Virus record (IMG/VR): IMGVR_UViG_3300033145_001595
Coordinates: 1-64,000 of that record
From: a virus
Length of the DNA stretch: 64,000 nucleotides
Reading direction: 5' to 3' (one strand)
Below are positions 421-15,099 of the stretch, in pieces. The position numbers were made by a program, and so were the translations under genes. The notes beneath the pieces are model-generated. The model did no database searches and had not been told where the DNA came from. It saw nothing but the letters and a program-made list of their open reading frames with translations. How positions within the stretch are numbered: position 1 is the first letter of the stretch; each line of letters begins with the position of its first letter.

Positions 421-459
421 CATGCCTGCATTATACCATACTACAGGTCATTTGTCAAG
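421..459 (-). promoter_or_regulatory. early promoter repeat copy 1 (TTGACA-N17-TATAAT, extended -10)
   Basis: minus strand reads CTTGACAAATGACCTGTAGTATGGTATAATGCAGGCATG. Confidence 0.9.
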
Positions 460-540
460 AGAAATCTACCCACATCCTACAACTTGCCCCCTACTCCCGC
501 GCCTTATTTTTTGTGCGTTTTTGCTATACTATACAGATGC

Positions 541-963
541 TTACCCTACCAGAACAACGTCTCCGTGCTCTGCAAAATCTTCCGGGCTAGTGGGATACAA
601 GAGAGGGAACGCCCTGTATGTATCTGCACTCATTTCAAAAATGCGATTCTCCCCGTTCTTGTACTTGAACGTCGCACACACACTGCCACTTATCTGCCTA
701 GAAGCGGACCAGCGCACACCTAGCCCACTAGCCATCATTACCCGCTTACGTTCTTCTCGCTCTCCGTAATCTGTCTTTGCTTTGGCACACCCACACCTTA
801 TGTGAGCCTCTTTACTAAATCTATCAGCGTACCCCTTCCGGCATCTTGGACACGCCGCTACTGGCGGACAATTGTTAAACGGACATTTGTAGTTACGTAC
901 TTTACCCGACGCCCCGCATATGCTACAACACAACAAGCCCTTTGAATCATAAATATTTCCCAT
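541..963 (-). CDS. hypothetical Cys-rich protein, possibly Zn-binding
   Basis: CSIC, CP-x3-CP and CPRC motifs; GGAG RBS. Confidence 0.65.
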   Translation of the reverse strand: MGNIYDSKGLLCCSICGASGKVRNYKCPFNNCPPVAACPRCRKGYADRFSKEAHIRCGCAKAKTDYGEREERKRVMMASGLGVRWSASRQISGSVCATFKYKNGENRIFEMSADTYRAFPLLYPTSPEDFAEHGDVVLVG

Positions 964-975
964 TGTTTCTGCTCC

Positions 976-1317
976 CTATTCATCCATGTGACAAAGCAAA
1001 TCAATGTCCTCATTACTGAACAACTCAGGCGCAAGCTTGCCTAGTGTACATGGAGTCCAGTACCTATCACGTTCAACCAGTAAACCAAGCGGCCCACGTG
1101 CCACCGACAACTCAGACAAACTAAAACACCCAAGCTCCTTTTTGAATCCATCCACAAGACCAAAAAACGTGTCCACACCGTCAAACTCTGTGGCATACCA
1201 CGTCCAGGTCGAATCGGGCGTAAAAAACTTCACACGAATAACAGCCTGCGCACCAAGCCCTTCCTGACTATACAAAGCCGGTAATGCACGCCGATTTGCT
1301 TTCGTGAGTAACATCAT
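976..1317 (-). CDS. DUF2958-like protein
   Basis: LPALYSQE, VKFFTPDSTWTWYATE, FFGLVDG..ELG.FSLSEL and VERD motifs typical of DUF2958. Confidence 0.8.
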   Translation of the reverse strand: MMLLTKANRRALPALYSQEGLGAQAVIRVKFFTPDSTWTWYATEFDGVDTFFGLVDGFKKELGCFSLSELSVARGPLGLLVERDRYWTPCTLGKLAPELFSNEDIDLLCHMDE

Positions 1318-1339
1318 CTTATTTTCACCCCCAAGAGTA

Positions 1340-1403
1340 ACAAACTAAAGAAGGGGAAAGGTTAGATTCTGGAATGGCGCACACAGTATCCTAACCTTTC
1401 CCC
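1340..1403 (-). terminator. intrinsic terminator-like hairpin
   Basis: 13-bp perfect stem (1353-1365 with 1391-1403) followed on the minus strand by TTCTTTAGTTTGTT. Confidence 0.6.
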
Positions 1404-1410
1404 CCCTATG

Positions 1411-1566
1411 CTACTGTGCCCCCTTTGGCTTACGCCGATAGTCGGGTGAGCCTACTGCCATGATATGATGCCTACCAAGCTCATGCCCGGCACCCCGAAT
1501 ACAATAGCCGCACACCTTACAACGATTCGCCCTACCCTCTCCGTCCATCTTAGGTCTGTACACCAT
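1411..1566 (-). CDS. 51-aa hypothetical protein (not in the ORF track)
   Basis: hand translation MVYRPKMDGEGRANRCKVCGYCIRGAGHELGRHHIMAVGSPDYRRKPKGAQ*; GGAGTAG RBS; downstream of promoter copy 2. Confidence 0.65.
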   Translation of the reverse strand: MVYRPKMDGEGRANRCKVCGYCIRGAGHELGRHHIMAVGSPDYRRKPKGAQ

Positions 1567-1601
1567 TTTTACTACTCCTGTTCAAAGTACCCATCTCTGA
1601 C

Positions 1602-1640
1602 TATGCCTACATTATACCATACTACAGGTCATTTGTCAAG
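1602..1640 (-). promoter_or_regulatory. early promoter repeat copy 2
   Basis: same TTGACA/TATAAT core; supplies the stop codon of ORF 1629-1904. Confidence 0.9.
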
Positions 1641-1904
1641 GAAAATATCAAGATTTTCTACAGACACAATAGTTACATTACAATACGCAACACCCACAAT
1701 AGGCTCCATTTTTGCAACTATTTCCCTTTTCCTATCTTGCTTACGGGCAAGCCTATATGCTTCAGCAGAACTAAGCATACTTCGTGATGCCATATCTATC
1801 CAACAAGGGCCAAATGGGCGCGTTCCATCGCCACCAGTCTCTCGCACAACAGCAAAGAAATCATCCCCATCGACACTTGCAACTCTTTCCTTAGTCCATG
1901 CCAT
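1629..1904 (-). CDS. hypothetical protein
   Basis: GGAG RBS; ends ...LDK* inside the promoter repeat. Confidence 0.65.
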   Translation of the reverse strand: MAWTKERVASVDGDDFFAVVRETGGDGTRPFGPCWIDMASRSMLSSAEAYRLARKQDRKREIVAKMEPIVGVAYCNVTIVSVENLDIFLDK

Positions 1905-1910
1905 TGTCCG

Positions 1911-2156
1911 TTACTCCCTTTCTTGACGACGATAACCATAACGTCCGTATTCTGCTGCCTCAAATAAAGCATCTTCTACATCACGAACCGCCCAATCAAG
2001 TGCATTATACATTTTCTTCTTCTCAGCACATACTACTTCCGCTTCTGCCTTATCAAGCGTAACAAAATGAGCAGTATTATCATACCCGACAATGTACACA
2101 TTTTTCCCTTTGGGGTCAACCTTAGCCATTGTTTCTACTCCCTTCTTAATCCCCAC
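1911..2156 (-). CDS. hypothetical protein (likely start MAKVD)
   Basis: GGAGTAG RBS; packed in operon. Confidence 0.6.
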   Translation of the reverse strand: MGIKKGVETMAKVDPKGKNVYIVGYDNTAHFVTLDKAEAEVVCAEKKKMYNALDWAVRDVEDALFEAAEYGRYGYRRQERE

Positions 2157-2367
2157 TGACCTTCTTAGCTACTAGCCATGCTGGTATCCCCACAACGTCC
2201 ATAGGCCCCATACCACGCGCCTGAACGTTGCACACTGACCGGGGGCACCATATGCGCTTACCTACCAGTGACTCGGCTTGTGCGTCCCCGCCCGACCTTA
2301 CCAAAAACAAAACGGCCTTTGCAGTCTCTCGCTTTATGGTACCATAGACATTTACCAAATCTGCCAT
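2146..2367 (-). CDS. small conserved phage-type protein
   Basis: RETAKAVL...W.P.S...IPAWL pattern; start reassigned to MADLVNV because 2372-2623 occupies the upstream part. Confidence 0.6.
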   Translation of the reverse strand: MADLVNVYGTIKRETAKAVLFLVRSGGDAQAESLVGKRIWCPRSVCNVQARGMGPMDVVGIPAWLVAKKVSGD

Positions 2368-2371
2368 TGCC

Positions 2372-2623
2372 TTAGCCCCTGCAAGAGTAACCCTGCACAA
2401 ATGCCATAGCAGCTTCCATTCCCTGCACAGTCCCCAACACACCCCTAGAAAAGAAATAATCGGGTATAGACCCATCTCGCCGCAAAGGGAAAAACCTGTA
2501 ACACGGCGGACCATACTCAGAAACCCGCACACACACGGACAACCCCGCATCATACGAAGCGGCCACTAACCTTGTCCATTCCATCTTTATTCTTTCTGGC
2601 CTATCCATTGCCTTAGTCCCCAC
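2372..2623 (-). CDS. hypothetical protein
   Basis: ORF abutting the next gene. Confidence 0.55.
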   Translation of the reverse strand: MGTKAMDRPERIKMEWTRLVAASYDAGLSVCVRVSEYGPPCYRFFPLRRDGSIPDYFFSRGVLGTVQGMEAAMAFVQGYSCRG

Positions 2624-2681
2624 CGCCTATCAAATAAAAATGGATCACCAGCCGGTGCTCCATACCCGGCATTCGTGGCTA

Positions 2682-2721
2682 GCAAGGGGTAAAGGCCGGG
2701 ATTTTCCCGGCCTTCCCTTGC
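2682..2721 (-). terminator. orphan copy of the cassette stem-loop
   Basis: gcaagggg-taaaggccggg-atttt-cccggcctt-cccttgc; same GGCCGGG/CCCGGCC stem as at 3596-3625 and 4082-4110. Confidence 0.6.
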
Positions 2722-2781
2722 GCCTGCCTTGTGGCTTGCTACTCAAACAGCAAACACACCCGACAGACTTCGCGCGACTCA

Positions 2782-2982
2782 CTATGACGTTTCAACGTAC
2801 TTCATGGCAGTACACAACAGATTATTGTAATCACCCGACGTTGCTTCCTCTTCAAAATCCTTTGCACCTTCCGGGTGTCCGGCCCGCCTAAGCGCTTTCA
2901 TTACCCGCCCAATAATTGCAAATGCATTTCCATCTTCGCCAACAAGCTTTACTTCCACGTCCCCGTAAATCGGTTCTGCCAT
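2782..2982 (-). CDS. small conserved phage protein (GEDGNAF motif)
   Basis: VKLVGEDGNAFAIIG...SGDY motif; GGGAGTAGGAAA RBS. Confidence 0.75.
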   Translation of the reverse strand: MAEPIYGDVEVKLVGEDGNAFAIIGRVMKALRRAGHPEGAKDFEEEATSGDYNNLLCTAMKYVETS

Positions 2983-3020
2983 TTTCCTACTCCCTACTCA
3001 GAGTAACCGTCCCTTACTAT

Positions 3021-3059
3021 CATGCTTGCATTATACCATACTACAGGTCATTTGTCAAG
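3021..3059 (-). promoter_or_regulatory. early promoter repeat copy 3 (stem-loop upstream, 3060-3095)
   Basis: 39-bp core; hairpin abuts the -35 box. Confidence 0.9.
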
Positions 3060-3092
3060 GGAAAAGACCAGGAATTGGCCCGGCCTTCCCTT

Positions 3093-3230
3093 GACGACGG
3101 CCCACTATCCGGTTGCGCTACTGGACCGTCTAGTGTGCAGGAGCGAGGGCAACGCCCTCATTGCATACTAGAGAGCTAGACCCTAGTACGCCCGTCGTTT
3201 CCTCTCCTAGCTCGAAAGTTATCGACCCTA
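3093..3230 (+). ncRNA. candidate structured non-coding RNA or DNA element
   Basis: multi-stem junction; wobbles read G-U on the + strand in three stems. Confidence 0.4.
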
Positions 3231-3257
3231 GATATTCTCCCGCACCCTATTCCCTTT

Positions 3258-3521
3258 CTAATGTGTGTGTCCATGTACTCGCTGCATGGCCTTTGCACCC
3301 AATTGATTAGCTACCATAGTCCGCACCCGGAAATCCTCAGAATGCAGCAACTTATCTATTGCGCAATCATCGCAAAACCCGGCCCGGTCCCCATCCCAAT
3401 TCGAGATTCCGGCCTTTCCTGCAACGTCCGTTACCTTAGCGGACAAACTCAACAATTGCGTTTCAAGGCGCTTGATCGCGGCCACCCGTTCCGTCTCCGC
3501 TGCCATATAATCACAAGGCAT
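3258..3521 (-). CDS. hypothetical protein
   Basis: GGAG RBS; downstream of promoter copy 4. Confidence 0.65.
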   Translation of the reverse strand: MPCDYMAAETERVAAIKRLETQLLSLSAKVTDVAGKAGISNWDGDRAGFCDDCAIDKLLHSEDFRVRTMVANQLGAKAMQRVHGHTH

Positions 3522-3556
3522 TTCCGTTGCTCCTATCCAGAGTATCCGTTCCTGAC

Positions 3557-3595
3557 TATGAACGTATTATACCATACTACAGGTCAAATGTCAAG
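3557..3595 (-). promoter_or_regulatory. early promoter repeat copy 4 (stem-loop 3596-3625)
   Basis: CTTGACATTTGACCTGTAGTATGGTATAAT. Confidence 0.9.
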
Positions 3596-3644
3596 GGAAA
3601 AGGCCGGGGAAAACCCGGCCCCCCTTACTCCTAATCCCCTTCTC

Positions 3645-4004
3645 TTATCCGGGCGGGACGGGTAACATTTGTGGCCATTCATTATCATCGGCCAAGTACC
3701 CATGATAGGCGTTTGTCTCACCTGTTCCACAATCGTAAACGAGTATGCCCGCATCCCCATGACTATCATCATCTTTCGGCGGAATCTGCGCAAGGGGCGG
3801 AAACACACCAAGCGACAGATTACCCGGAATGTCAATATGAAATTGACCTGTCAACCGAGCAACGCTATATGATAAATCCCCCTGCCGCATACCGGGAATG
3901 GCATCGCGTAACATGCTCAGTGCTTCGGACCCGCGCCAATGAACATATACTGTGCATCCGATTTCGTCACCATTCTTTACACTAATCAAGCACCTATCAC
4001 CCAT
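3645..4004 (-). CDS. conserved phage-type hypothetical protein (MGDR...YxHW)
   Basis: MGDRCLI and VYVHWRG motifs; cassette RBS. Confidence 0.7.
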   Translation of the reverse strand: MGDRCLISVKNGDEIGCTVYVHWRGSEALSMLRDAIPGMRQGDLSYSVARLTGQFHIDIPGNLSLGVFPPLAQIPPKDDDSHGDAGILVYDCGTGETNAYHGYLADDNEWPQMLPVPPG

Positions 4005-4042
4005 TTTCCTACTCCCGTCTAGAGTAACCTACCCATCCCATC

Positions 4043-4081
4043 ATGGAATACATTATACCATACTACAGGTCATTTGTCAAG
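4043..4081 (-). promoter_or_regulatory. early promoter repeat copy 5 (stem-loop 4082-4110)
   Basis: 39-bp core. Confidence 0.9.
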
Positions 4082-4113
4082 GAGAAAGGCCGGGAAAATC
4101 CCGGCTTTGCGCC

Positions 4114-4341
4114 TTAACGGTTTATCCGTTCAATCGGTATAAGCTCATCTAACTTATTCCGAACACTGTACGCTGCATTGATCTGGTCATTACGTTTGAA
4201 TACCACTGTTCCGTCTTGTAGCATCGACTCTGTAGGACTGCTATCAAGCACAGTATCAGAGAATAGCGCGTCACTAACAAGTCGATCTAACACTTTAACT
4301 TCTTCCAGAGTCAATTCCAAGACCAATTTGTCAATACTCAT
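4114..4341 (-). CDS. hypothetical protein
   Basis: cassette leader and RBS. Confidence 0.65.
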   Translation of the reverse strand: MSIDKLVLELTLEEVKVLDRLVSDALFSDTVLDSSPTESMLQDGTVVFKRNDQINAAYSVRNKLDELIPIERINR

Positions 4342-4379
4342 TTTCCTACTCTCGTCTAGAGTAACCTACCCATCCCTAT

Positions 4380-4418
4380 CATGCCTGCATTATACCATAC
4401 TACAGGTCATTTGTCAAG
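4380..4418 (-). promoter_or_regulatory. early promoter repeat copy 6
   Basis: 39-bp core; the TGA in the -35 box is the stop of ORF 4414-4650. Confidence 0.9.
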
Positions 4419-4650
4419 GGGAAAGACTAGCAAAAAAGCATTCCGAAAGCCCCCTCTCATTTGGATTACAAGATGCCGCATTTACATTATCTATTGCAAC
4501 CACTGGCCAATGTCCCGATCCTTCTGGCAACACCATTTCAATCGCATCTTCTGGAGTATCCGCTCGCACCACCTTGCGAAATAATTCCAACATCTTGCCC
4601 TTGCTCCGTTCTACTGTATGCGACACAATAAACTTTTTGACTGCCATCAC
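4414..4650 (-). CDS. hypothetical protein
   Basis: AAGGAG RBS; stop lies within the repeat. Confidence 0.6.
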   Translation of the reverse strand: MMAVKKFIVSHTVERSKGKMLELFRKVVRADTPEDAIEMVLPEGSGHWPVVAIDNVNAASCNPNERGLSECFFASLSP

Positions 4651-4666
4651 TTACTCCTTACATTTA

Positions 4667-5209
4667 CTAAATTGTAGCGTCTACTAACTCCCTACGGACC
4701 CGTTGCAACTTCCACCTTGATAGCCCTAAATACTGTGCAACCAGTACCGGAAATGTCTTGCGCTTGTTGCTAGTGTCCCTACAGATAGCCTGCAATTCCG
4801 GCGGTGGGTCAAGCGCACACTGCAAGAACGCTTCCGCCCTATCACTTAGTGTGCCAGTGTCATGGCGAAAGAACAACGCTACGTCCCGCCCATCCCGTGA
4901 GATACGCACCGGCACGTCTGAACACGTCAAAGCGGTCACTACCGGCCCTACATCGGGTAATGCCTGCACACTGCGTAGCATAGCCTTTCGCAAAATATTA
5001 TGAAACTGCCTAATTAGACACGTATTCAGGTAGGTATTAAATGTGGCTTTCCCGCTTGGATTCCACGTTACCCTCACCCTATGCAGTACTATATTCCCTT
5101 CACTGATTAAATCGTCCAGCGACCAGATACCACGTCTTGTACCCATTTTTCGTAAACAAATCTTTGCCTGTATTTCAATGATTTTATCAGCCGTTACTAC
5201 CTTTGCCAT
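4667..5209 (-). CDS. sigma70 region-2-like protein (putative phage sigma factor)
   Basis: DDLISEGNIVL...WNPSGKATFNTY...IRQFHNILRK resembles sigma regions 2.2-2.4; HTH-like C-terminus (VAQYLGLSRWKL). Confidence 0.65.
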   Translation of the reverse strand: MAKVVTADKIIEIQAKICLRKMGTRRGIWSLDDLISEGNIVLHRVRVTWNPSGKATFNTYLNTCLIRQFHNILRKAMLRSVQALPDVGPVVTALTCSDVPVRISRDGRDVALFFRHDTGTLSDRAEAFLQCALDPPPELQAICRDTSNKRKTFPVLVAQYLGLSRWKLQRVRRELVDATI

Positions 5210-5211
5210 AC

Positions 5212-5346
5212 TTACTTAACCTTTCCACACACAGTACACCGCCAATAAGTAGCGTGTTCCTTTGGCTTACACTCATTATGAACACGCATACCTTGCCCGT
5301 ACCGCTGATCCTGCCATTTATGCTTACATGTACATTGCCGTATCAT
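5212..5346 (-). CDS. small Zn-ribbon-like protein
   Basis: MIRQCTCKH..QD..YG...RVHN...WRCTVCG; the longer ORF start overlaps a hairpin. Confidence 0.6.
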   Translation of the reverse strand: MIRQCTCKHKWQDQRYGQGMRVHNECKPKEHATYWRCTVCGKVK

Positions 5347-5370
5347 GCTCAACACCTTTCGCCCGTCAAA

Positions 5371-5398: not shown

Positions 5399-5409
5399 AC
5401 TATTTTTAC

Positions 5410-6354
5410 CTACACTGGCGGCATTTCAAAATCATCGGCCAGTTCATCAACATCCGCCGGTACTTCGGCGTCTGTATTCTCCCCGTTGCCATTTTCCTTT
5501 TTCCATGCTGCCAGTGCTTCCTCATCTATATGGTTCCCCACACCATCATTCTTGTGTGCAGTCACCCCCGCGTAATAGTCCACATAAGCCGTGTCACGTT
5601 CGTCTGGCATCATTTCGATGCCGTCTGGCGCAACATAACCGGGCAACGAGAACTCTTGATTCAGGTCAAGAGTAATTTCCGCAAAGGCGATTCTTGCGGT
5701 CTCAACTTCCGCAATTTTTTCATCCCAAGCGGCCAATTCTTCGCCCGCTTTCTTGCTCGCCCGCGTAATTGCCCGTGCCGTTTTCTTAGCGGCCTGCATG
5801 GCGCTGGAAAGCTTACCAGCGGTCGATGCCTCGAACATCGACTCTATACCGGCGGCCCCCCGCATTGTGTCTCTGAGCGCCTTGACGTCCGCCCGTTCAA
5901 TGGCATCCGCCATTTTGTTAAGCGTTTGTTGCGCACTAGAGATAATGGCGTTTGCTGCCGATCCTTCGTCGCCAGCAAGCAGAAACGTTATGAACCCGCC
6001 CGAAATGCTGGTAAACTTTGACGTGGAATTATGCAGATTGATAATTGTACGCGCGGCGCTAATCGCTTCCTGCAATTCCGCCCCCCTGGACATCGGAACG
6101 TACGTCCCCGCGTACACCGAATAGCCCAAACTTTTGACACCATTTTTGGCGTCAAACACGGCCTTTGCAACGGCCTTGTGTTCGTCGACATTGGCTATAC
6201 GCTTGTTAGTGTGCCAGTCACCCGTAAGCACTCGGTCAACGTCCACAACTTCGTTGCGGTCGCTAACTTTCATACTCACACACCCGTGATTGTGAATATC
6301 CGCCACAACCAACCATCCCGATTTCAAAACTGCACTAGGTCTAACAGTTCCCAT
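5410..6354 (-). CDS. hypothetical helical protein with acidic C-terminus
   Basis: 314-aa ORF; cassette RBS. Confidence 0.75.
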   Translation of the reverse strand: MGTVRPSAVLKSGWLVVADIHNHGCVSMKVSDRNEVVDVDRVLTGDWHTNKRIANVDEHKAVAKAVFDAKNGVKSLGYSVYAGTYVPMSRGAELQEAISAARTIINLHNSTSKFTSISGGFITFLLAGDEGSAANAIISSAQQTLNKMADAIERADVKALRDTMRGAAGIESMFEASTAGKLSSAMQAAKKTARAITRASKKAGEELAAWDEKIAEVETARIAFAEITLDLNQEFSLPGYVAPDGIEMMPDERDTAYVDYYAGVTAHKNDGVGNHIDEEALAAWKKENGNGENTDAEVPADVDELADDFEMPPV

Positions 6355-6397: not shown

Positions 6398-6436
6398 CAT
6401 GCCTGCATTATACCATACTACAGGTCGTTTGTCAAG
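6398..6436 (-). promoter_or_regulatory. early promoter repeat copy 7
   Basis: 39-bp core with one substitution; supplies the stop of 6432-6698. Confidence 0.9.
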
Positions 6437-6698
6437 GGGAAAGTCGATCATCACATACTGGCGTAATGTACTGAATAGTCGGCATTATCCGAGCAACGCC
6501 AACAATTGTCTGCCCTTCCGAAGGCCCCGACTCCTCTTCGTCAATTACCAAAGCCGTTCTAAGAGCGAAGTTTTCGCTAACATAGCTTTTTGCTCGCATG
6601 TCCACACAGCACACGCCAGTTTCGTCTATCCGGCGTACTACTACAAAAAAATCAACCATAGCAATCTCATCCACCGCAATCTTTTTTTCATCGCCCAT
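6432..6698 (-). CDS. hypothetical protein
   Basis: cassette RBS; stop lies in the -35 box. Confidence 0.6.
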   Translation of the reverse strand: MGDEKKIAVDEIAMVDFFVVVRRIDETGVCCVDMRAKSYVSENFALRTALVIDEEESGPSEGQTIVGVARIMPTIQYITPVCDDRLSP

Positions 6699-6736: not shown

Positions 6737-6775
6737 CATGCCTGCATTATACCATACTACAGGTCAAATGTCAAG
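6737..6775 (-). promoter_or_regulatory. early promoter repeat copy 8 (stem-loop 6776-6806)
   Basis: 39-bp core; GGCCGAG-cttc-CTCGGCC hairpin. Confidence 0.9.
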
Positions 6776-6813
6776 GGAAAAGGCCGAGCTTCCTCGGCCC
6801 CCCTTGCCCCCAT

Positions 6814-8343
6814 TCAGGACAAATCAAACTCCGGCGTACCGTTACCCGCAACTTTCTTAGTTGTTGCAGATCGGGCATTGCCGTTTGCCCATTCCATCAA
6901 CTCACCAATTTTGGTACTCTGCGAGCGGGATATGGGCACCATCTGTTGCAATTCTTGTACAACCGATTCGGTTGTAACCGGCGCGTCATTTTCGTACTGT
7001 GTATACAGTGCGGCCTTGATCGCCGCTTCTATCTCTGCGCCCGTGTACCCATTCGATTGCTCTGCAAGTACTCCAGCGTCCACGTCCCCACACTGCGCAA
7101 ACTTTCCTGAAAGCACCTTAGCGATTTCCGCCCTTTCTGTAATATTTGGGAGATTAACAAAGAATACATCATCCCATCTTCCGGCCCTCATAAACTCCGG
7201 CGGCAACTTGCTCACGTCATTAGCCGTCGCTACCACAAAAACACTCGCTGTGCGCTCTTGCATCCAAGTGAGAAATGTAGCGAATACCCGTTGGCTAGTG
7301 CCCGCATCGCCCTCTGCGCCAAAACCCGATTTTTCGATTTCGTCAAGCCACAACACACAAGGTGCAATAGTTTCCGCTATTTGCAGCGCCGTCCGAACCG
7401 TTTGTTCTGACTCCCCTACCCATTTACTGAACAAGGCACCAATGTCAAGACGCACAAGAGGCACACCCCAAGATGCCGAAACACACTTAGCCGTCAAGCT
7501 CTTGCCACAACCGGGCACGCCCACCAGCAACACGCCCTTTGGTGCGGGCAATCCATACTCGCGGCCCGCTGGCGTAAATCCTGCATGTCGCTTTTTGAGC
7601 CACGACTTTAGCCCGTCAAGCCCACCAACATCGTTCATGCCATTTTTATTCACTTCCTGCCATTCAAGGCCCGTATCCCTAATCGCGTTTTTCTTTTCCT
7701 CTGCAATCAAGGTGGGCTCAAACCGCTTCAGCGATACAAGCGATTTTGCCAGACCGATAGCCACCTGATTACCCGTCAAACCCACTGCAGCGTCAATAAT
7801 TGCTTCTCTGTTTCCATTCTCAGCCGCTTCCTTTTTTGCACTTTCAGGTGCAATTTCTAGCAAGCGATCCAGAATCTCGGACAGTTCCCCGCGATCCGGC
7901 AATGGCCATGCGATTTGTGTGCAGGGCAGTCCCGACTCTGGCGGTGCGGTGTCGACTACCACTACCTGCAATGCGGACGGTCCTGGACGTGCCGGTATGT
8001 AACGGTTAAGGTCTTTTGTTTGTCTCAGAGTAATCGGATCGGAAAGCCACTGTGACAAATCCCGCATAATAAGCGCAATTCGCTGATCGGATGCAAGGCA
8101 AAACTTTATTGCTTCCGCTGGCGATTCGCTTTGGGGCTTAACAGATTTTCCGTCAATGTCGACAATGCCCCCGGTAACAGACCAAAGCCACACCTTATAG
8201 TTCAATTTAAGGCAAACGCTAGTGACTGCCCGTTCTACGCGCATTTCCTCAGTAGTAGTTGCCCAAATCAAACCCGCCTTTGAGCGCATAGCAATTTCCA
8301 AATCCTGAATTGCCCCGCGTTTCAGATCATCAACCGTTACCAT
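6814..8343 (-). CDS. Ycf46/SpoVK-type AAA+ ATPase
   Basis: DVGGLDGLKSWL, Walker A GVPGCGKS, SKWVGESE, Walker B WLDEIEK, VATAN...LPPEFMRAGRWD. Confidence 0.9.
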   Translation of the reverse strand: MVTVDDLKRGAIQDLEIAMRSKAGLIWATTTEEMRVERAVTSVCLKLNYKVWLWSVTGGIVDIDGKSVKPQSESPAEAIKFCLASDQRIALIMRDLSQWLSDPITLRQTKDLNRYIPARPGPSALQVVVVDTAPPESGLPCTQIAWPLPDRGELSEILDRLLEIAPESAKKEAAENGNREAIIDAAVGLTGNQVAIGLAKSLVSLKRFEPTLIAEEKKNAIRDTGLEWQEVNKNGMNDVGGLDGLKSWLKKRHAGFTPAGREYGLPAPKGVLLVGVPGCGKSLTAKCVSASWGVPLVRLDIGALFSKWVGESEQTVRTALQIAETIAPCVLWLDEIEKSGFGAEGDAGTSQRVFATFLTWMQERTASVFVVATANDVSKLPPEFMRAGRWDDVFFVNLPNITERAEIAKVLSGKFAQCGDVDAGVLAEQSNGYTGAEIEAAIKAALYTQYENDAPVTTESVVQELQQMVPISRSQSTKIGELMEWANGNARSATTKKVAGNGTPEFDLS

Positions 8344-8375: not shown

Positions 8376-8414
8376 CATGCCCGTATTATACCATACTACA
8401 GGTCATTTGTCAAG
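8376..8414 (-). promoter_or_regulatory. early promoter repeat copy 9
   Basis: 39-bp core; supplies the stop of 8403-8648. Confidence 0.9.
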
Positions 8415-8686: not shown

Positions 8687-8725
8687 CATGCCCGTATTAT
8701 ACCACAGCATAGACAACCTGTCAAG
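8687..8725 (-). promoter_or_regulatory. early promoter repeat copy 10 (divergent spacer)
   Basis: CTTGACAGGTTGTCTATGCTGTGGTATAATACGGGCATG. Confidence 0.8.
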
Positions 8726-8743: not shown

Positions 8744-9050
8744 AAAGATGGTAAAAATAGCTACTTACAATCTACCCCGTCCTGTGTGTATAATACTCTG
8801 AACACACAAGCACCAACCAGCCCCACATCTTACAAGGCAATTATGGTGCAACAAAGAAAATATAAGATACGCACCATAAATAGTAATTGTGGTGCAATAG
8901 TGTAGTTGCAGTGTAAATAGAAAATATTGCGCAACAAATAAGATACAGGATGTGCCTCCCAAATTTTTTCACACACACACGATGCCACACAAATGTAGAT
9001 GTAGAAGTAGACGAGCGCGATACCTCACAAATGTAGATGTAGAACCACAC
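8744..9050 (+). repeat. repeated ~300-bp non-coding element, copy B
   Basis: collinear with 16251-16515: gtgtataatactctgaacacacaa, gtgcaacaa, atacgcacc, aaatagtaattgt, tagttgca, GTAGAW tract. Confidence 0.8.
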
Positions 9051-9061
9051 ACCCAAATTAT

Positions 9062-9313
9062 TTACTCCACATCAGGTTGCATCAACTCAGGATGATCCAT
9101 TTCTATTTTACGAACATACCCCTTAACACCCATAGTACCATTTAGTATTGCATGTCTTGGAACTGCTTTACCAGTACACCACCTATGAACTGACGCCCAC
9201 GTAACACCTATCTCATTAGCAACATCCTCTTGTGTGTGACCTACTGCTTTCCTAGCCCTATCAAGCCTCTCAGGTGTAAACTCAAAATCATCAATATTCC
9301 TATCTACTCTCAT
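9062..9313 (-). CDS. XRE-family helix-turn-helix protein
   Basis: ARKAVGHTQEDVANEIGVTWASVHRWCTGK. Confidence 0.85.
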   Translation of the reverse strand: MRVDRNIDDFEFTPERLDRARKAVGHTQEDVANEIGVTWASVHRWCTGKAVPRHAILNGTMGVKGYVRKIEMDHPELMQPDVE

Positions 9314-9788: not shown

Positions 9789-9798
9789 TACTTATCTC

Positions 9799-10143: not shown

Positions 10144-10451
10144 TACTTACCTCTTTCCCCCAACGACTCAGTTAATGCATCCATTGCACGCGCCACTAGA
10201 CCCACCACATGCCCCTTACGTATCCAACCCTTAACCTCGGCATAGGCAAGAGCCGTCTCTAACGGACCATCCTGACGTAACGATACCGAGTAATTGCCAA
10301 CTTCGAGACCTCCCGTTCCATCATTCACAATCTCAACAACAGCCAAATTCATACCAGGATTATCCTCTCCGGGTGAGTATAAATCAATCATCACTCGCAA
10401 CATCACCAGTCTCCTCTCCAAACCATTCACATAACCAATCACATAATCCAC
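10143..10451 (-). CDS. hypothetical protein (likely start MLRVMID)
   Basis: EIVNDGTG...GNY motif; GGAG RBS before the internal Met. Confidence 0.6.
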   Translation of the reverse strand: MDYVIGYVNGLERRLVMLRVMIDLYSPGEDNPGMNLAVVEIVNDGTGGLEVGNYSVSLRQDGPLETALAYAEVKGWIRKGHVVGLVARAMDALTESLGERGK

Positions 10452-10554
10452 AGATCGCTAGCATCACTATCGGAATCACAGGAAGCAATGCAGCTATTAG
10501 AATCTGCCCCGAAGTCAAATCCTCACCCTGCATCGCCAGTCTCCTTTTTATAAC

Positions 10555-11139
10555 TCATTTTTCTTTTCTACAGTATGGCACTACCCCATTCAAACCATAA
10601 ATATACTGTGCCCCATCTATATACAACTTAACGCACTTAGGGGCTGGTTGCCCAGGAACAAGGGGCTCTGTACTCGTAACAAAGCATGACTCAGATTCCA
10701 ATTTAGGCTCCGGAGCCAACGTATACCCACTAGTCATAACACAAGGCCACCACCGACCATGAGCATTATCATATTCAAATTTTTCCGTTGCCCCATTCCA
10801 CCGACAGGGCGCTTCCTCATACATCACATTACCCCCACCTTTAGCTACCAACACAGCCTCCCCCAACGTCATAATACCAACTCTTATATCACTCGGTACT
10901 GATTCCATATCAGGGGTAAGCAAATTCCAACAATACTCTTTACTATGTGTACCATCCCAAGAAGATTCTATTACCCACTTTGCTTCTACAACACCAGCAA
11001 CCAAAACTTCAAATATATCCTCTGTGTCCTTACACTTACGATGAATAGCAATAGTACTAGCATTATACGCATACGCCCCACCTGCCAAAGCTATCTTCAT
11101 TGTCTCACCATTCAACATTTTACTTACCCCCATAAACAA
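10555..11139 (-). CDS. hypothetical protein
   Basis: long ORF in the operon. Confidence 0.6.
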   Translation of the reverse strand: MFMGVSKMLNGETMKIALAGGAYAYNASTIAIHRKCKDTEDIFEVLVAGVVEAKWVIESSWDGTHSKEYCWNLLTPDMESVPSDIRVGIMTLGEAVLVAKGGGNVMYEEAPCRWNGATEKFEYDNAHGRWWPCVMTSGYTLAPEPKLESESCFVTSTEPLVPGQPAPKCVKLYIDGAQYIYGLNGVVPYCRKEK

Positions 11140-11341
11140 GAATAAGAGTAATAATCACCAGACCAAACCCAATGACTGCATGAAACGTAGCACGCGGAAT
11201 ATCATCCGCTATCAAACAACAACAGGCCACTACAATATTACCCAAAGCAACAGCCATACCAGTAAGCACTATTGGTAGTAATATGTTCATATTTTCTACC
11301 TTTCTTTTATGTAATTCGCTTATTGCATCTACGGGCCACAT
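11120..11341 (-). CDS. small membrane protein
   Basis: two hydrophobic segments. Confidence 0.5.
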   Translation of the reverse strand: MWPVDAISELHKRKVENMNILLPIVLTGMAVALGNIVVACCCLIADDIPRATFHAVIGFGLVIITLILVYGGK

Positions 11342-11726
11342 TACGTTGAGCTTCCTTCTTACGATTCCTATGCCTTCTTGTTGGTGGAGGCATTCTCTTT
11401 CTTTTCATTTTTCATTTCCCCCTCAAATATTAGGCCCACTATCCTCCCAAATCGCCACGCCGATCAACGTCGGTAAGGAAACAACGCGGCCAAGACGGCA
11501 TACGGACCCGCCCGTTCTCGTTCAGCGAATCCTCAACCTCCCGTATGGCCCACATTGCAGTTAACACCCCGGAAATATTCCGGTTGCCCACAGCTTCCAT
11601 CAAGGAACGGTGTGCCTCAACCAACTTACACAAAAGATGAATCGTCCTATCACTCATTTGTAATCCCTCCCAATTGAATATGAGCGCCCTACATTTCACG
11701 AGGCCCCCTTTGTCTGCGTGTGCGGC

Positions 11727-11830
11727 TTGGGATGGCCGGATTCGAACCGGCGATGCGTGTTGACGAAGCACGCTGATTTCGAGTCAACGTAGCTAGCGTG
11801 ATCCGGGTTTGTCCACTTCCCCACACCCCA
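11727..11830 (-). tRNA. atypical tRNA-Ser(CGA)-like gene with ~15-nt insertion
   Basis: acceptor TGGGGTG/CATCCCA; D-arm GGG-AAGTGGACAAA-CCC; anticodon arm GTTGA-CTCGAAA-TCAGC; long variable arm; T-arm GCCGG-TTCGAAT-CCGGC; no encoded CCA. Confidence 0.7.
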
Positions 11831-11933
11831 TGCCGCACGCTTCACAATGACGGGCACTCCTTGACGCTGTCCACCCTCTTCCCCTGAGTGGGTGCCGGCG
11901 CGACAGTCGCAGCGGGCCATTACCTTTCTCTAT

Positions 11934-11972
11934 CATGCCTGCATTATACCATACTACAGGTCATTTATCAAG
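11934..11972 (-). promoter_or_regulatory. early promoter repeat copy 11 (TTGATA variant)
   Basis: 39-bp core upstream of the tRNA-like gene. Confidence 0.85.
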
Positions 11973-11983
11973 GGAAATCCAGT

Positions 11984-12418
11984 CTACTTTCGCTTTCTGC
12001 GCCGTCTAACTATAGGCTGTACATCAACACTAACATTTTCTCTACGCCTGCGCCGTCTAATTATTGGCATAGCTATAGACTTCTCTGATTTCACTCTCTC
12101 CACTACATCGAGATCAAACGGCACAAATGAACTACCATCATTTATTGTTTTCTCATTCACCCATTGCTTGTACTCTACTAAAGTATTGAATCCCATAATC
12201 CTAACATAGATTAGAGCAAGGTCTTTATTTTTCATAAACCGTCTACTTCCAGGTTCACACCGAATATGCCTAACCTTACCCCCTGGGAGACGAGTACCTA
12301 CCAACTCAATGCAACCAGTAATGCGACTGATCCGTCTACCTACAGGCTTACCACACACGTAGCAAATCTGTTTTTCTTTCAAACTTTCGGCAATTTCCAA
12401 ATTAGTCATTTTCGCCAT
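11984..12418 (-). CDS. hypothetical basic protein
   Basis: CYVC...HIRC motif; Arg-rich C-terminus. Confidence 0.65.
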   Translation of the reverse strand: MAKMTNLEIAESLKEKQICYVCGKPVGRRISRITGCIELVGTRLPGGKVRHIRCEPGSRRFMKNKDLALIYVRIMGFNTLVEYKQWVNEKTINDGSSFVPFDLDVVERVKSEKSIAMPIIRRRRRRENVSVDVQPIVRRRRKRK

Positions 12419-12424
12419 TTATTT

Positions 12425-12616
12425 TTAATCCTTTACTTCCCATTGCCATTCACCCGTAGCATGGTCATATCCGGCAACACCTTGTTCTATGGCCTGTGTT
12501 TCCATATTTCTTTCCCCCCGATTTATACCCACAGCCGTGCCAATAAAAAAACCAACAACACCCATAATCACACCTATCACAATTATAGCACCCATATCCA
12601 TATCATCCATTATCAC
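12425..12616 (-). CDS. small membrane protein
   Basis: TM segment followed by AIEQGVA.Y...TGEW.W. Confidence 0.65.
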   Translation of the reverse strand: MIMDDMDMGAIIVIGVIMGVVGFFIGTAVGINRGERNMETQAIEQGVAGYDHATGEWQWEVKD

Positions 12617-12636
12617 TACTCCTTTTAGAATTTAGA

Positions 12637-13917
12637 TTACGTACCTTCCTGCCAACCTGCCATGTAATCCTTCTGCCGCGTAGTCAACTTATCAATGTCA
12701 ATACCCATTGTCCCTAACTTCAACTCAGCTACCAATTTGTCAATGTGGATAGGAACGGAATAGACACCTGCCTTGGGTTCAAATTCCGTTCCCAACTCCT
12801 TAGTATACACAGCGTACTCCGACGTTAACGCCTGCACAGCGAAACTCATATCCATTACAGACGATGGGTGCCCCTCGGCAGCGGCCAAGTTCACAAGCCG
12901 CCCCTCTGCAAGAAGATAAATTCTTGTACCATGACCTGTCTCATACTCTTCTACGTTCTCTGCCTTCACTTCAAAATCATTCGACATTTCTACAAGATCA
13001 TCAATATTTATTTCAACATTGAAATGACCAGAGTTTGCAACTATCGCACCATCTTTCATCCGAGAAAAATGCTCTCGCCTTATCACATCAGCATTACCCG
13101 TCACAGTCACAAAAAGATCACCGTCCGGGACTGCTTCTTCCATCGTAGTCACTCGGAAACCATCCATAACGGCCTCCAACGCCCGCAACGGATCAACTTC
13201 CGTTACAGTAACATGAGCACCCATACCCTTCATACGACTAGCAAGGCCACGCCCACACATGCCATAACCAGCCACCACAACGTTCATTCCGGCTATCAGC
13301 GCACCCGTGCAACGTATAATACCGTCGACAGTACTCTGTCCAGTACCATAGCGATTGTCAAACAGGTGCTTGGTCATTGCGTCATTGACAGCGAACACAG
13401 GAAACAGAAGCATACCTGCACTCTCCATAGCCCGCAAACGATTCACACCTGTAGTAGTCTCTTCCATACTAGCTATTACATCAGTAGCCAATTCTTTACG
13501 TTCGGACAGAATAGCCGTCACAAGATCAGCACCATCGTCTATTGTAATATTTGGCTTATTGTCCAGTACACTGGTAATATGATTGTAATAAGTTTCATTT
13601 GTCTCACCATGCCGTGCAAATACAGGTATACCCCAATAATCCACCAACGCCGCAGCCACATCATCCTGTGTACTAAGGGGATTTGACCCACACAGTACTA
13701 TGTCCGCACCGCCAGCCTTCAAAGCCCGTGCCAAATTTGCAGTCTCAGCAGTTATATGCAAACAAGCCGAAATCCGCAAACCGGCAAACGGCCTCTCTGT
13801 CTCAAAGCGATCACGCACCATAGCCAAAACCGGCATGGACTTATTTGCCCACTCGATTCTTCGCAAACCACCTTTAGCCAACGACATATCCTTTACATCG
13901 TACTTACTCTGTTCCAT
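12637..13917 (-). CDS. ahcY: adenosylhomocysteinase (SAH hydrolase)
   Basis: MPVL, ACLHITAET, SNPLSTQD, DDGAD, EETTTGV, TKHLFDNRYGTGQS, GYGMCG, NSGHFNVEI, EGRLVNLAAAEGHPS.VMDMSF. Confidence 0.97.
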   Translation of the reverse strand: MEQSKYDVKDMSLAKGGLRRIEWANKSMPVLAMVRDRFETERPFAGLRISACLHITAETANLARALKAGGADIVLCGSNPLSTQDDVAAALVDYWGIPVFARHGETNETYYNHITSVLDNKPNITIDDGADLVTAILSERKELATDVIASMEETTTGVNRLRAMESAGMLLFPVFAVNDAMTKHLFDNRYGTGQSTVDGIIRCTGALIAGMNVVVAGYGMCGRGLASRMKGMGAHVTVTEVDPLRALEAVMDGFRVTTMEEAVPDGDLFVTVTGNADVIRREHFSRMKDGAIVANSGHFNVEINIDDLVEMSNDFEVKAENVEEYETGHGTRIYLLAEGRLVNLAAAEGHPSSVMDMSFAVQALTSEYAVYTKELGTEFEPKAGVYSVPIHIDKLVAELKLGTMGIDIDKLTTRQKDYMAGWQEGT

Positions 13918-13918
13918 T

Positions 13919-14272
13919 TTAATTATACTTTCTATGTCGATTAGGAGAATTCAAAGCCCGACGCAACCTACGTCGGAAGTTTTTAAGAACACGAACAGCA
14001 TCAACATCAAAAGTCTGACCAGAATGAACATAAAAAATATCACTACAAGCATCAACAATTTCATTAAACATCTCACCCGATACACCACTACATCTACGCT
14101 TAAGTATACATTGGTGGCACCCATATTCATTACACAGCGGAAATGGCTCTTCCCCCAAAAACTCACTTTTGCGAATACTTTTTACTGTAAAAGCCTCAAG
14201 AAGCTTTTCAATATCACCCTTCTTAACCCTAATTCTATCCTCAATCTTTCTACCAAACATTCCAATCCACAT
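13919..14272 (-). CDS. hypothetical protein
   Basis: packed in operon; Cys cluster. Confidence 0.55.
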   Translation of the reverse strand: MWIGMFGRKIEDRIRVKKGDIEKLLEAFTVKSIRKSEFLGEEPFPLCNEYGCHQCILKRRCSGVSGEMFNEIVDACSDIFYVHSGQTFDVDAVRVLKNFRRRLRRALNSPNRHRKYN

Positions 14273-14274
14273 TT

Positions 14275-14517
14275 TTATTTCCTTTCCTTATTATGAATAA
14301 TACACACCTGTTCACCAATAGCATCCTGGACCAAACGCCCATGCTCCACAGACAATCCAAGCCCACCCCGACCCGTCCCCGTCAAGAATCCCCAACCACG
14401 TACATCAAATATCCGTGTCACACTTCCTTTGTGCATAATATAGATAAACCCACCCATCTTATCAAACTGCCATTCAACATTCATTACACAATTGAAAGCC
14501 TCAGTTTCCCCAATCAC
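14275..14517 (-). CDS. hypothetical phage protein (RGWG.LTG motif)
   Basis: DVRGWGFLTGTGRGGLGL. Confidence 0.6.
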   Translation of the reverse strand: MIGETEAFNCVMNVEWQFDKMGGFIYIMHKGSVTRIFDVRGWGFLTGTGRGGLGLSVEHGRLVQDAIGEQVCIIHNKERK

Positions 14518-14523
14518 AATTAT

Positions 14524-14754
14524 TTACTTTCCTTCCTTAGATTCAGGAGAAAACATACGCCCACAATCCCTACATCCACTCCAACCATCATTAGAGGACC
14601 AACGACGATTAGACGGATGAGAACACCTTTTCCTTCGCTCACACATAAGCGTTTCTATCAGACCCGTTTTATAGCACACAAGACATTGACCTTTTTGACG
14701 ACCACCAGCATACCACTCACGAATACGCGAATGATCGCATGTCTTTTGATTCAT
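14524..14754 (-). CDS. small Cys/His-rich protein
   Basis: two C.H...C..C units. Confidence 0.6.
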   Translation of the reverse strand: MNQKTCDHSRIREWYAGGRQKGQCLVCYKTGLIETLMCERRKRCSHPSNRRWSSNDGWSGCRDCGRMFSPESKEGK

Positions 14755-14767
14755 AATTATTTTACCC

Positions 14768-15040
14768 CTATGACTTTGGAACCAACTTCCTCAAACTCAA
14801 ACTTTCCAAAGTTCTTTCAAGGTGATTCCTAGCAGTATATGAATCAAATATTAAGTCTTGCTCCAACCTACCAGCCGCAAAACCATGCTTAATCCCAATA
14901 GACAAACTCATCCTAACTCTACGATCAATTTTAACGGCATCATCTACTACATCCTCCAACTCAGTAAGCAACTTACTAGCACGCCGATAAAATCTTTCCA
15001 CATCATTTTCTATGTAAGCCATTTTCCAATCTCCCATCAA
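14768..15040 (-). CDS. hypothetical protein
   Basis: first gene after promoter copy 12. Confidence 0.6.
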   Translation of the reverse strand: MMGDWKMAYIENDVERFYRRASKLLTELEDVVDDAVKIDRRVRMSLSIGIKHGFAAGRLEQDLIFDSYTARNHLERTLESLSLRKLVPKS

Positions 15041-15060
15041 GAGTAACCATCCCTTACCAT

Positions 15061-15099
15061 CATGCCTGCATTATACCATACTACAGGTCATTTGTCAAG
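15061..15099 (-). promoter_or_regulatory. early promoter repeat copy 12
   Basis: 39-bp core; the -35 TGA is the stop of 15095-15892. Confidence 0.9.

What the first reader, a model, noticed from the sequence alone, without database searches (positions are those of the whole stretch)
421..15099. Array of gene cassettes delimited by 12 near-identical promoter repeats
Seen: the 39-bp repeat CTTGACAAATGACCTGTAGTATGGTATAATGCAGGCATG (minus strand) at 421, 1602, 3021, 3557, 4043, 4380, 6398, 6737, 8376, 8687, 11934 and 15061. The 17-nt spacer, which normally drifts, is almost invariant, and the unit continues into a shared leader and RBS (GGGAGTAGGAAAATG). Many copies drive a single small gene. Established: T4-type promoter-early-stem-loop (PeSL) cassettes promote modular shuffling of early genes. 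Inference: an integrase-free, integron-like accessory gene array in which the repeats serve both as expression signals and as recombination sites (the phage encodes RecA, SSB and Mre11/Rad50). The cargo is a good pool of host-takeover and anti-defence candidates.
Basis: partly seen in the sequence, partly recalled or inferred. Interest (0 to 1): 0.82.

Follow-up and report, generated by a model that had tools for sequence, protein, structure and literature searches.

The report
Phage early-gene promoter-terminator cassette array
An uncultured 103-kb phage puts twelve almost identical strong host-type promoters, some fused to terminators and a shared leader, in front of its early accessory genes; this is a new example of the known PeSL kind of phage cassette array, not a new kind of system.

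Summary
Twelve minus-strand TTGACA-17-TATAAT promoters lie in the first 15.1 kb of a 102,928-bp IMG/VR phage contig, and none lie elsewhere in it. In 11 copies a 20-nt block (spacer positions 4-17 plus the -10) never varies, while the adjacent positions vary by 15-41%. One copy (8687-8725) shares only the hexamers. Four copies are fused to a related GC hairpin terminator, eight carry a related leader/RBS, and six drive one gene each.

I read this as the host-sigma-driven early region of the phage, built from PeSL-like terminator-promoter-leader units. Exchange inside the repeat is supported from within the contig. Unit P3594 has the left flank of P6774 and the right flank of P8413/P1639, and left and right flanks are statistically unlinked. 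Cargo GC3 is 0.49 against 0.27 for the backbone. Orphan and eroded units are also present.

"Integron-like" is only an analogy: there is no tyrosine integrase and no attC-like site, and every cassette has its own promoter. The sharp invariant island also points to selection on the spacer, possibly a factor-binding site.

No relatives could be fetched, so the gain/loss test was not run. This scan has already found PeSL-like arrays in many other phages.

The parts
15061..15099 (-). Promoter unit P15098 (exact 39-mer). It heads a 7-gene operon that includes SAH hydrolase. The upstream ORF stops in its -35.
11934..11972 (-). Promoter unit P11971 (-35 is TTGATA). It is followed by a ~280-nt structured non-coding leader with a tRNA-like element, then 8 small genes.
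8687..8725 (-). Promoter P8724. The hexamers and the bases after the -10 are shared, but the spacer is unrelated. It is the 3' end of a ~300-bp repeated non-coding element. Drives one 81-aa gene.
8376..8414 (-). Promoter unit P8413 (leader type B). Drives the AAA+ ATPase gene alone.
6737..6775 (-). Promoter unit P6774 (TTGACATTT variant, leader type A), preceded by the hairpin terminator at 6782-6803. Drives one 88-aa gene.
6398..6436 (-). Promoter unit P6435. Heads the operon with the 314-aa protein and the sigma-70 region-2-like 180-aa protein.
4380..4418 (-). Promoter unit P4417 (exact 39-mer). Drives one 75-aa gene.
4043..4081 (-). Promoter unit P4080, preceded by the hairpin terminator at 4089-4105. 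Drives one 119-aa gene. Its leader is 90% identical to that of P4417.
3557..3595 (-). Promoter unit P3594, the mosaic unit. Its left flank (hairpin 3602-3624 plus TTGACATTT) matches P6774 and its right flank (leader type B) matches P8413/P1639. Drives one 87-aa gene.
3021..3059 (-). Promoter unit P3058, preceded by the hairpin at 3066-3085. Heads a 66-aa gene, then an orphan hairpin, then three more genes.
1602..1640 (-). Promoter unit P1639 (leader type B). About 25 nt of its left flank is shared with P8413, giving both upstream ORFs the tail DIFLDK.
421..459 (-). Promoter unit P458 (exact 39-mer), the last unit before the contig end. Drives a ~90-aa gene.
2694..2712 (-). Orphan terminator hairpin of the same family, followed by an eroded promoter-like stretch (TTGCTA ... 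GTATGG, -10 lost).
1315..1406 (-). Long hairpin (1353-1406) followed directly by an orphan leader/RBS (1315-1340) with no promoter, ahead of the DUF2958-like gene.
6814..8343 (-). Cargo: AAA+ ATPase (509 aa, PF00004, phrog_8638). The only cargo gene with homologues in the 53 other metagenome and IMG/VR phage loci examined.
4667..5209 (-). Cargo: 180-aa protein with a sub-threshold sigma-70 region-2 match. Candidate phage sigma factor for the next transcription stage.
12637..13917 (-). Cargo: S-adenosylhomocysteine hydrolase (426 aa). Its closest genomic relatives are 67-69% identical, in Brocadiaceae MAGs.
9062..9313 (-). Cargo: 83-aa XRE-type helix-turn-helix protein. I assigned the Pfam/PHROG HTH hit to this ORF by reading the sequences.
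11727..11830 (-). Cargo: tRNA-like RNA with a 7-bp acceptor stem and a perfect T arm but an aberrant anticodon region, lying in the leader of P11971.
8744..9057 (-). Repeated ~300-bp non-coding element. A second copy lies at 16200-16515, and the start of a third lies at 1-35, the contig end. It divides the array into blocks.

Best explanation
This is the early (host-RNA-polymerase-dependent) accessory region of a large uncultured phage. Twelve consensus housekeeping-sigma promoters (TTGACA, 17 nt, TGnTATAAT; probable start at the invariant CA seven bases after the -10) fire in the same direction. Each drives one to nine mostly small genes through a related 34-55-nt leader and a strong RBS. Four units carry a related GC-rich hairpin plus T-tract directly upstream that insulates them from the preceding cassette. 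Where there is no hairpin, the upstream ORF simply runs into the unit and stops there. The cargo includes a sigma-like protein, which would hand transcription on to later genes, plus an XRE regulator, an AAA+ ATPase, SAH hydrolase, a tRNA-like RNA and about 30 unknowns. Because the same 29-39 bp is repeated in direct orientation, it also serves as a patch of homology. The phage's own RecA, SSB and Mre11/Rad50 machinery can exchange, delete or insert cassettes there, as in the PeSL elements of T4-type phages. What is shown: the repeats, their architecture, and one clear mosaic unit. What is inferred: promoter activity, early timing, ongoing shuffling and the roles of the cargo.
For: All 12 promoters score 11-12 of 12 with an extended -10, are co-oriented, and are confined to 15.1 kb of the 103-kb contig. 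Each has a fixed-distance leader and RBS before an ATG. Related hairpin/T-tract terminators abut four units. Five upstream ORFs end inside the unit. The cargo is mostly small unknowns plus the sigma-like, HTH and AAA+ proteins. Recombination genes are present. Mosaic evidence: the left flank of P3594 equals that of P6774 and its right flank equals that of P8413/P1639, so the breakpoint lies in the invariant core. Across-core four-gamete incompatibility is 57/110, the same as when flanks are dealt at random (45 +/- 9). Left-flank sites, by contrast, are linked (14 against 27 +/- 3.4). Leader and upstream similarity are uncorrelated (Mantel r 0.07). Cargo GC3 is 0.49 at 1-8.4 kb and 0.37 at 8.4-15.1 kb, against 0.26-0.28 for the backbone. 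Orphan and eroded units occur. No cargo gene other than the AAA+ ATPase has a homologue next to that gene in other phages. The architecture matches published PeSLs (PMC2839356, PMC4122927) and the promoter-dense SPO1 host-takeover module (PMC6873191).
Against: There are no transcription data. No relative carrying the repeat was found in IMG/VR, JGI metagenomes, GenBank phages or 31 Brocadiaceae genomes, so gain or loss of cassettes at the units is not shown. Only 4 of the 12 units have a clear terminator (P4417 has a weaker candidate). The invariant block is a sharp island: 0% variation, next to positions varying by 15-18%. That fits selection on the spacer better than recombinational homogenisation. 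The lack of linkage between flanks may partly reflect that left flanks are the ends of unrelated upstream genes. The host is unknown. The contig is a metagenome assembly that ends inside a repeat, so cassette order is not independently verified.
Confidence: 0.7

Rival explanations
1. The invariant spacer is kept by selection, not by recombination. The 20-nt block GACCTGTAGTATGG+TATAAT, possibly with the bases after it, would be the binding site of one factor that switches all 11 promoters together. Candidates are the array's XRE-type HTH protein, another phage early-shutoff protein, or a host protein. Recombination at the units would then be a by-product. This does not exclude the main explanation.
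For: Spacer positions 4-17 show 0 of 154 non-consensus cells, while spacer positions 1-3, the 10 nt after the -10 and the leader vary by 15%, 18% and 41%. The region from the spacer to +9 is an imperfect palindrome (ATGACCTGTAGTAT/ATAATGCAGGCAT), and its single strand folds better than 195 of 200 shuffles. An XRE HTH gene lies in the array. From my own knowledge, repeated operators at many phage early promoters are known: the conserved inverted repeats of phiC31 and the stoperators of cluster A mycobacteriophages.
Against: The right half of the palindrome is much less conserved than the left (18% against 0%), which is unlike a symmetric operator. No binding data exist, and no relatives are available for a covariation test. 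The shuffle statistic is weak (z -2.25).
Confidence: 0.35
2. A true site-specific cassette system, integron-like. A dedicated recombinase, for example the resolvase-type serine recombinase at 91.7-92.4 kb, would recognise the repeat core and excise or insert cassettes as circles.
For: The repeats are direct, sharply bounded and invariant, and a small serine recombinase is encoded on the contig.
Against: The recombinase lies 77 kb away, next to virion genes and behind its own promoter. No tyrosine integrase was found. The core is a complete consensus promoter with no dyad of the hix, res or attC type around a central crossover dinucleotide. Every cassette has its own promoter, unlike integron cassettes.
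Confidence: 0.05
3. The promoters are read by the phage's own sigma-like protein rather than by the host housekeeping sigma, so the genes would be middle rather than early.
For: A sigma-70 region-2-like protein is encoded in the array, and the spacer invariance could reflect extra contacts.
Against: The hexamers, spacing and TG motif are a perfect housekeeping-sigma consensus. The sigma-like gene is itself driven by one of these promoters (P6435), so at least the first round needs the host sigma. The match to sigma is below threshold (23.7 bits against a cut-off of 24).
Confidence: 0.05
4. Assembly artefact: the order or number of cassettes is a chimera produced by the short repeats in a metagenome assembly.
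For: The contig begins inside a repeated ~300-bp element, and 39-53-bp repeats can confuse short-k assemblies.
Against: Each unit has distinct flanks that join continuously to ORFs reading into the unit. The repeats themselves would exist under any order. The identical stretch is shorter than the usual final k-mers and read lengths.
Confidence: 0.03

Closest known systems
PeSL (promoter-early stem-loop) cassettes in the hyperplastic regions of T4-type phages (Arbiol et al. 2010, PMC2839356; Comeau et al. 2014, PMC4122927)
   Same: Both are repeated composite units of a GC-rich (GGGG...CCCC) terminator hairpin and a strong sigma-70-type promoter, followed by an RBS. Both flank small, mostly unknown genes in an accessory region of a phage that has its own recombination machinery. 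In both, the units act as patches of homology for exchange.
   Different: This phage is not T4-type: it has a family A DNA polymerase and no close relative. Core identity is much tighter, with 20 nt invariant including the spacer. Only a third of the units carry the hairpin. A long shared leader is part of the unit. Indels between relatives and mini-circles, which define PeSL function, could not be examined.
Host-takeover module of Bacillus phage SPO1 (26 genes in a 12.4-kb terminal region; Stewart et al. 1998, cited in PMC6873191)
   Same: Both are a dense row of host-sigma early promoters and strong ribosome sites driving short operons of small genes at one end of the genome. The early-to-later transition uses phage sigma factors.
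   Different: No homology to SPO1 genes was detected. A terminal redundancy is not shown here, because the contig simply ends. As I recall, SPO1 promoters do not share an invariant spacer or leader.
Promoter reuse / putative mobile promoters in prokaryotes (Nijveen, Matus-Garcia, van Passel 2012, PMC3575422)
   Same: Highly similar promoter segments sit in front of non-homologous genes within one genome.
   Different: That work concerns cellular genomes and scattered copies. Here the copies form one co-oriented array with terminators and leaders in a phage.
Integrons
   Same: An array of co-oriented small gene cassettes separated by a repeated boundary sequence.
   Different: There is no IntI and no attC-type folded site. 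Each cassette has its own promoter instead of one common Pc.

Membership tests
PeSL cassettes (T4-type phages) | Repeated strong sigma-70-like early promoter in intergenic spaces | tested here: met
   12 sites score 11-12 of 12 with an extended -10 and are co-oriented. This is sequence-level evidence only.
PeSL cassettes (T4-type phages) | Adjacent stem-loop acting as terminator for upstream transcription | tested here: met
   Related GC hairpins with a T-tract abut P6774, P4080, P3594 and P3058, and there is a weaker one at P4417. The other 7 units have none.
PeSL cassettes (T4-type phages) | Lies in a hyperplastic region of small, non-conserved genes | tested here: inconclusive
   The cargo is mostly unknowns. 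Its GC3 is 0.49 against 0.27 for the backbone, and no cargo gene but the AAA+ ATPase is shared with other phage loci. Variability among relatives could not be examined.
PeSL cassettes (T4-type phages) | Insertions, deletions or replacements between close relatives with breakpoints in the motif; mini-circles | not testable with these tools
The one internal mosaic unit is indirect support.
PeSL cassettes (T4-type phages) | Carried by a T4-type myovirus | tested here: not met
   The DNA polymerase is family A with a UDG-like N-terminus, not the T4 family B type. The best matches to phage polymerases are 25% identity or less.
SPO1-type host-takeover module | Dense cluster of host-sigma early promoters driving small genes with strong RBS | tested here: met
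   12 promoters lie in 15.1 kb with 35 ORFs and one tRNA-like RNA, most ORFs under 150 aa.
SPO1-type host-takeover module | Located in the terminal redundancy | tested here: inconclusive
   The array runs to the contig end. The record is linear and estimated 84% complete. The other contig end carries a similar GC-rich row of small genes.
SPO1-type host-takeover module | Homology to SPO1 gp37-gp60 | tested here: not met
   Pfam and PHROG scans of 34 cargo proteins gave no SPO1-type family. This is a weak test.
Integron | IntI tyrosine recombinase | tested here: not met
   No PF00589 match in the 103-kb record, although the controls matched. The record is incomplete.
Integron | attC sites (imperfect inverted repeats that fold as single strands) and promoterless cassettes | tested here: not met
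   The core folds weakly (-5 and -2.6 kcal/mol) and is itself a promoter in every cassette.

The most novel reading that the evidence does not exclude
The 20-nt invariant island (spacer positions 4-17 plus the -10) would be the recognition element of a dedicated phage factor that acts on all eleven units at once. That factor could be a single early-shutoff or early-activation switch, such as the array's XRE protein or the sigma-like protein, or it could be a recombination helper. On this reading the array is one regulon whose boundary sequence is kept by selection while cassettes assort freely around it.
Probability: 0.25. Interest if true: 0.55.

Novelty: new member of a known kind. Interest (0 to 1): 0.35.

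Why it matters
This extends the promoter-terminator cassette design, first described in T4-type coliphages, to a deeply branching uncultured phage with no close relatives. The array gives a clean, compact list of about 35 early genes with predicted start sites. These are the natural candidates for host-takeover or counter-defence screens once a host is known. The sharp contrast between the invariant spacer and the freely assorting flanks makes one question testable: whether such repeats are kept by regulation or by recombination. It does not reveal a new kind of system, and this scan has already met similar arrays in many other phages.

Tried and rejected
Searches for relatives carrying the repeat all failed:
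- The 21-mer core in IMG/VR gave nothing.
- The 20-mer in JGI metagenomes gave 2 single chance hits with no -35.
- The 114-nt unit against GenBank phages gave nothing, as did the 16-kb array against GenBank phages.
- The core with 3 mismatches allowed gave nothing in 31 Brocadiaceae genomes.
- Earlier windows of this scan held no look-alike.

Protein routes to relatives also failed:
- AAA+ ATPase in IMG/VR: 31% identity or less.
- DNA polymerase in IMG/VR: 29% or less.
- The 59%-identical ATPase P0003 used as query in IMG/VR: 48% or less.

Other checks:
- Rfam found nothing in the array at either threshold.
- A leader hairpin that would hide the RBS (CTCT/GGAG) is weak: 4 pairs, -2.1 kcal/mol. 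I do not claim it.
- I first read the TRTG -16 motif as pointing to a Firmicutes host. I dropped this after the SAH hydrolase came out closest to Brocadiaceae MAGs. The host stays unknown.
- Similarity of units does not fall with distance along the array.
- Whole-cassette duplication is not the origin of the array. Only one pair of cargo genes is paralogous (6432-6698 and 1629-1904, 35% identity).
- Other phages carrying this ATPase show no comparable repeated 16-mers nearby.

Full report
**Where the window lies.** The window is bases 1-64,000 of a 102,928-bp IMG/VR virus record. The record is classed as linear and estimated 84% complete. The finding occupies the left end of that contig.

**The observation.** The 39-mer matches nine times with 0-2 mismatches, where shuffled sequence gives none.
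- A looser search adds the copies at 4043 and 3557, which differ only after the -10.
- The copy at 8687-8725 keeps TTGACA, TATAAT and the ten bases after the -10, but its spacer is unrelated.
- All twelve are TTGACA(TTGATA once)-17-TATAAT with TG before the -10, on the minus strand. No comparable site with this spacing exists in the other 88 kb.
- A degenerate copy (TTGATG-16-TATAAT, with 17 nt identical to P8413) lies inside a coding region at 15696-15723.

**Anatomy of the unit.**
- *Conservation profile.* With the 11 like copies anchored on the core, spacer positions 4-17 and the -10 show 0 of 220 non-consensus cells. The figures elsewhere are: -35, 1.5%; spacer positions 1-3, 15%; ten bases after the -10, 18%; ten bases before the -35 (a T-tract, TTTYCC), 26%; further out, 41-55%.
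- *Start site.* The CAT seven bases after the -10 is invariant and is the likely transcription start.
- *Leader.* The leader is 34-55 nt long and ends in GGGAGTAGGAAAATG or a near variant in eight units. It falls into at least two types: A (GCAGGCATGAT...GGTTACTCT) and B (..CAT[AG]GTCA...G[GA]TACT). Type A leaders are 72-90% identical to one another, against a background of 52 +/- 6%.
- *Terminators.* Four units (P6774, P4080, P3594, P3058) are preceded by related GC hairpins plus a T-tract.
- *Upstream ORFs.* Where there is no hairpin, the upstream ORF reads into the unit and stops at the TGA of TTGACA or of AATGACC. Two unrelated ORFs thereby acquire the same tail, DIFLDK.
- *Leader hairpin.* A hairpin pairing CTCT with the GGAG of the RBS is predicted, but it is weak.

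**Cargo.**
- Six promoters drive one gene each. The others drive 4-9.
- Recognisable cargo:

| Coordinates | Product |
|---|---|
| 6814-8343 | AAA+ ATPase |
| 12637-13917 | SAH hydrolase, 67-69% identical to Brocadiaceae MAG genes |
| 4667-5209 | 180-aa protein with a sub-threshold sigma-70 region-2 match |
| 9062-9313 | XRE-type HTH protein |
| 976-1317 | DUF2958 protein |
| 11727-11830 | tRNA-like RNA in the long leader of P11971 |

- The rest have no family.
- Only one cargo pair is paralogous, so the array did not grow by duplicating whole cassettes.

**Context.**
- Upstream on the same strand lie primase-like, SNF2 helicase and DNA methylase genes.
- The opposite arm encodes PolA, a clamp loader, a gp32-like SSB, RecA, Rad50-like and Mre11-like proteins, and a terminase.
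- No tyrosine recombinase is present. One resolvase-type serine recombinase lies at 91.7-92.4 kb.
- The right end of the contig (100.5-102.9 kb) has the same raised GC (0.48). It carries a row of eight small minus-strand genes behind a TTGACA-17-TAGGAT site with the same T-tract. The early region therefore probably continues across the unassembled gap.
- A ~300-bp non-coding element recurs at 16200-16515 and 8744-9057, and begins again at 1-35, where the contig stops. P8724 is the 3' end of this element, which explains its different spacer.

**Evidence for exchange at the repeats.**
- P3594 shares its left flank with P6774: the hairpin GGGGGGCCG.G...CGGCC, TTTTCCC and the TTGACATTT variant. 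Its right flank (ACG..CAT.GTCA, leader type B) is shared with P8413 and P1639. P6774 itself has a type A leader. All four combinations of left and right type exist, so at least one exchange took place within the invariant core.
- Across the core, 57 of 110 pairs of informative sites fail the four-gamete test. That is no fewer than when right flanks are dealt at random among the copies (45 +/- 9). Sites within the left flank are linked: 14 incompatible pairs against 27 +/- 3.4 expected, reached by 0.05% of shuffles.
- Leader and upstream similarities are uncorrelated.
- GC3 is 0.49 for genes at 1-8.4 kb and 0.37-0.38 at 8.4-15.1 kb. It is 0.33 in the replication genes and 0.26-0.28 in the rest of the genome. 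The cargo therefore looks imported.
- Decayed pieces show turnover of units: an orphan leader after a hairpin at 1315-1406, an orphan hairpin with an eroded promoter at about 2640-2720, and the in-ORF copy at 15696-15723.
- Caveat: left flanks are partly the 3' ends of unrelated genes, so some of the lack of linkage is expected even without recent exchange.

**What keeps the spacer invariant.** Recent copying or gene conversion would homogenise neighbouring positions as well. Instead the invariant block is bounded on both sides by positions that vary by 15-18%. That argues for selection on the block itself. The region from the spacer to +9 is an imperfect palindrome, and the single strand folds better than 195 of 200 shuffles. 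However, its right arm is far less conserved than its left. A factor-binding site is therefore plausible but not shown.

**Comparison with known systems.**
- The design matches PeSLs: strong sigma-70-like promoters joined to GGGG...CCCC stem-loop terminators in the accessory regions of T4-type phages. There, recombination between units explains the indels between close relatives and yields mini-circles (PMC2839356, PMC4122927).
- It also resembles the promoter-dense host-takeover module at the end of the SPO1 genome (PMC6873191).
- More generally it is an instance of promoter reuse in front of unrelated genes (PMC3575422).
- It is not an integron in any defining respect.
- This scan has already followed up PeSL-like arrays in several unrelated phages, so the kind is familiar.

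**Limits.**
- No relative with the repeat was found.
- Promoter activity, timing, host and cargo functions are all inferred.

**Verdict.** This is a new member of a known kind and of moderate interest.

Noticed in passing
window 11727-11933 (minus): P11971 is followed by about 280 nt of GC-rich non-coding RNA that holds a tRNA-like element. It has a 7-bp acceptor stem, a D arm and a perfect T arm (GCCGG-TTCGAAT-CCGGC), but an aberrant anticodon/variable region and no encoded CCA. ARAGORN finds it only with introns allowed or a lowered threshold. Rfam finds nothing.
   Followed up: partly
window 8744-9057, 16200-16515 and 1-35: A ~300-bp non-coding element (about 70-77% identical between copies) holds tandem CTACWT hexamers, AT-rich boxes (TTGTTGCAC..ATA) and back-to-back promoter-like sites. 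One of these sites, of the form TTACAA-18-(GTG)TATAAT, faces away from the early genes. The contig ends inside a third copy. The element could be a block header, an origin-like region or a regulatory region.
   Followed up: partly
contig 100,500-102,928 (L023 8500-10929): The right contig end has GC 0.48 and eight small minus-strand genes behind a TTGACA-17-TAGGAT site with the same T-tract and a GGGAGT RBS. The contig finishes in short tandem repeats (GGCCAGAGGCAAG...). This is probably the far end of the same early region.
   Followed up: partly
contig 91,749-92,441 (L024): A resolvase/invertase-type serine recombinase (PF00239, 90 bits) sits behind its own near-consensus promoter. It lies beside three tandem paralogues (93.1-94.5 kb) of the early-array gene 13919-14272, and a fourth paralogue lies at 97.7-98.1 kb.
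   Followed up: no
window 12637-13917: The phage SAH hydrolase is closest (67-69% aa, 65-71% nt) to genes of Candidatus Brocadiaceae (anammox) MAGs, ahead of a broad field of genomes at 60-64%. This is a weak hint about host or donor.
   Followed up: partly
window 3645-4004 and 5410-6354: Two otherwise unrelated cargo proteins end in a similar acidic motif: LADDNEWPQM... and ...ADDFEMPPV. The DNA is similar at 3665-3694 and 5412-5441.
   Followed up: no
window 44103-46595: The large terminase gene carries a LAGLIDADG-type insertion (an intein or homing-endonuclease domain).
   Followed up: no
window 30165-32633: The family A DNA polymerase has an N-terminal uracil-DNA-glycosylase-superfamily domain.
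   Followed up: no
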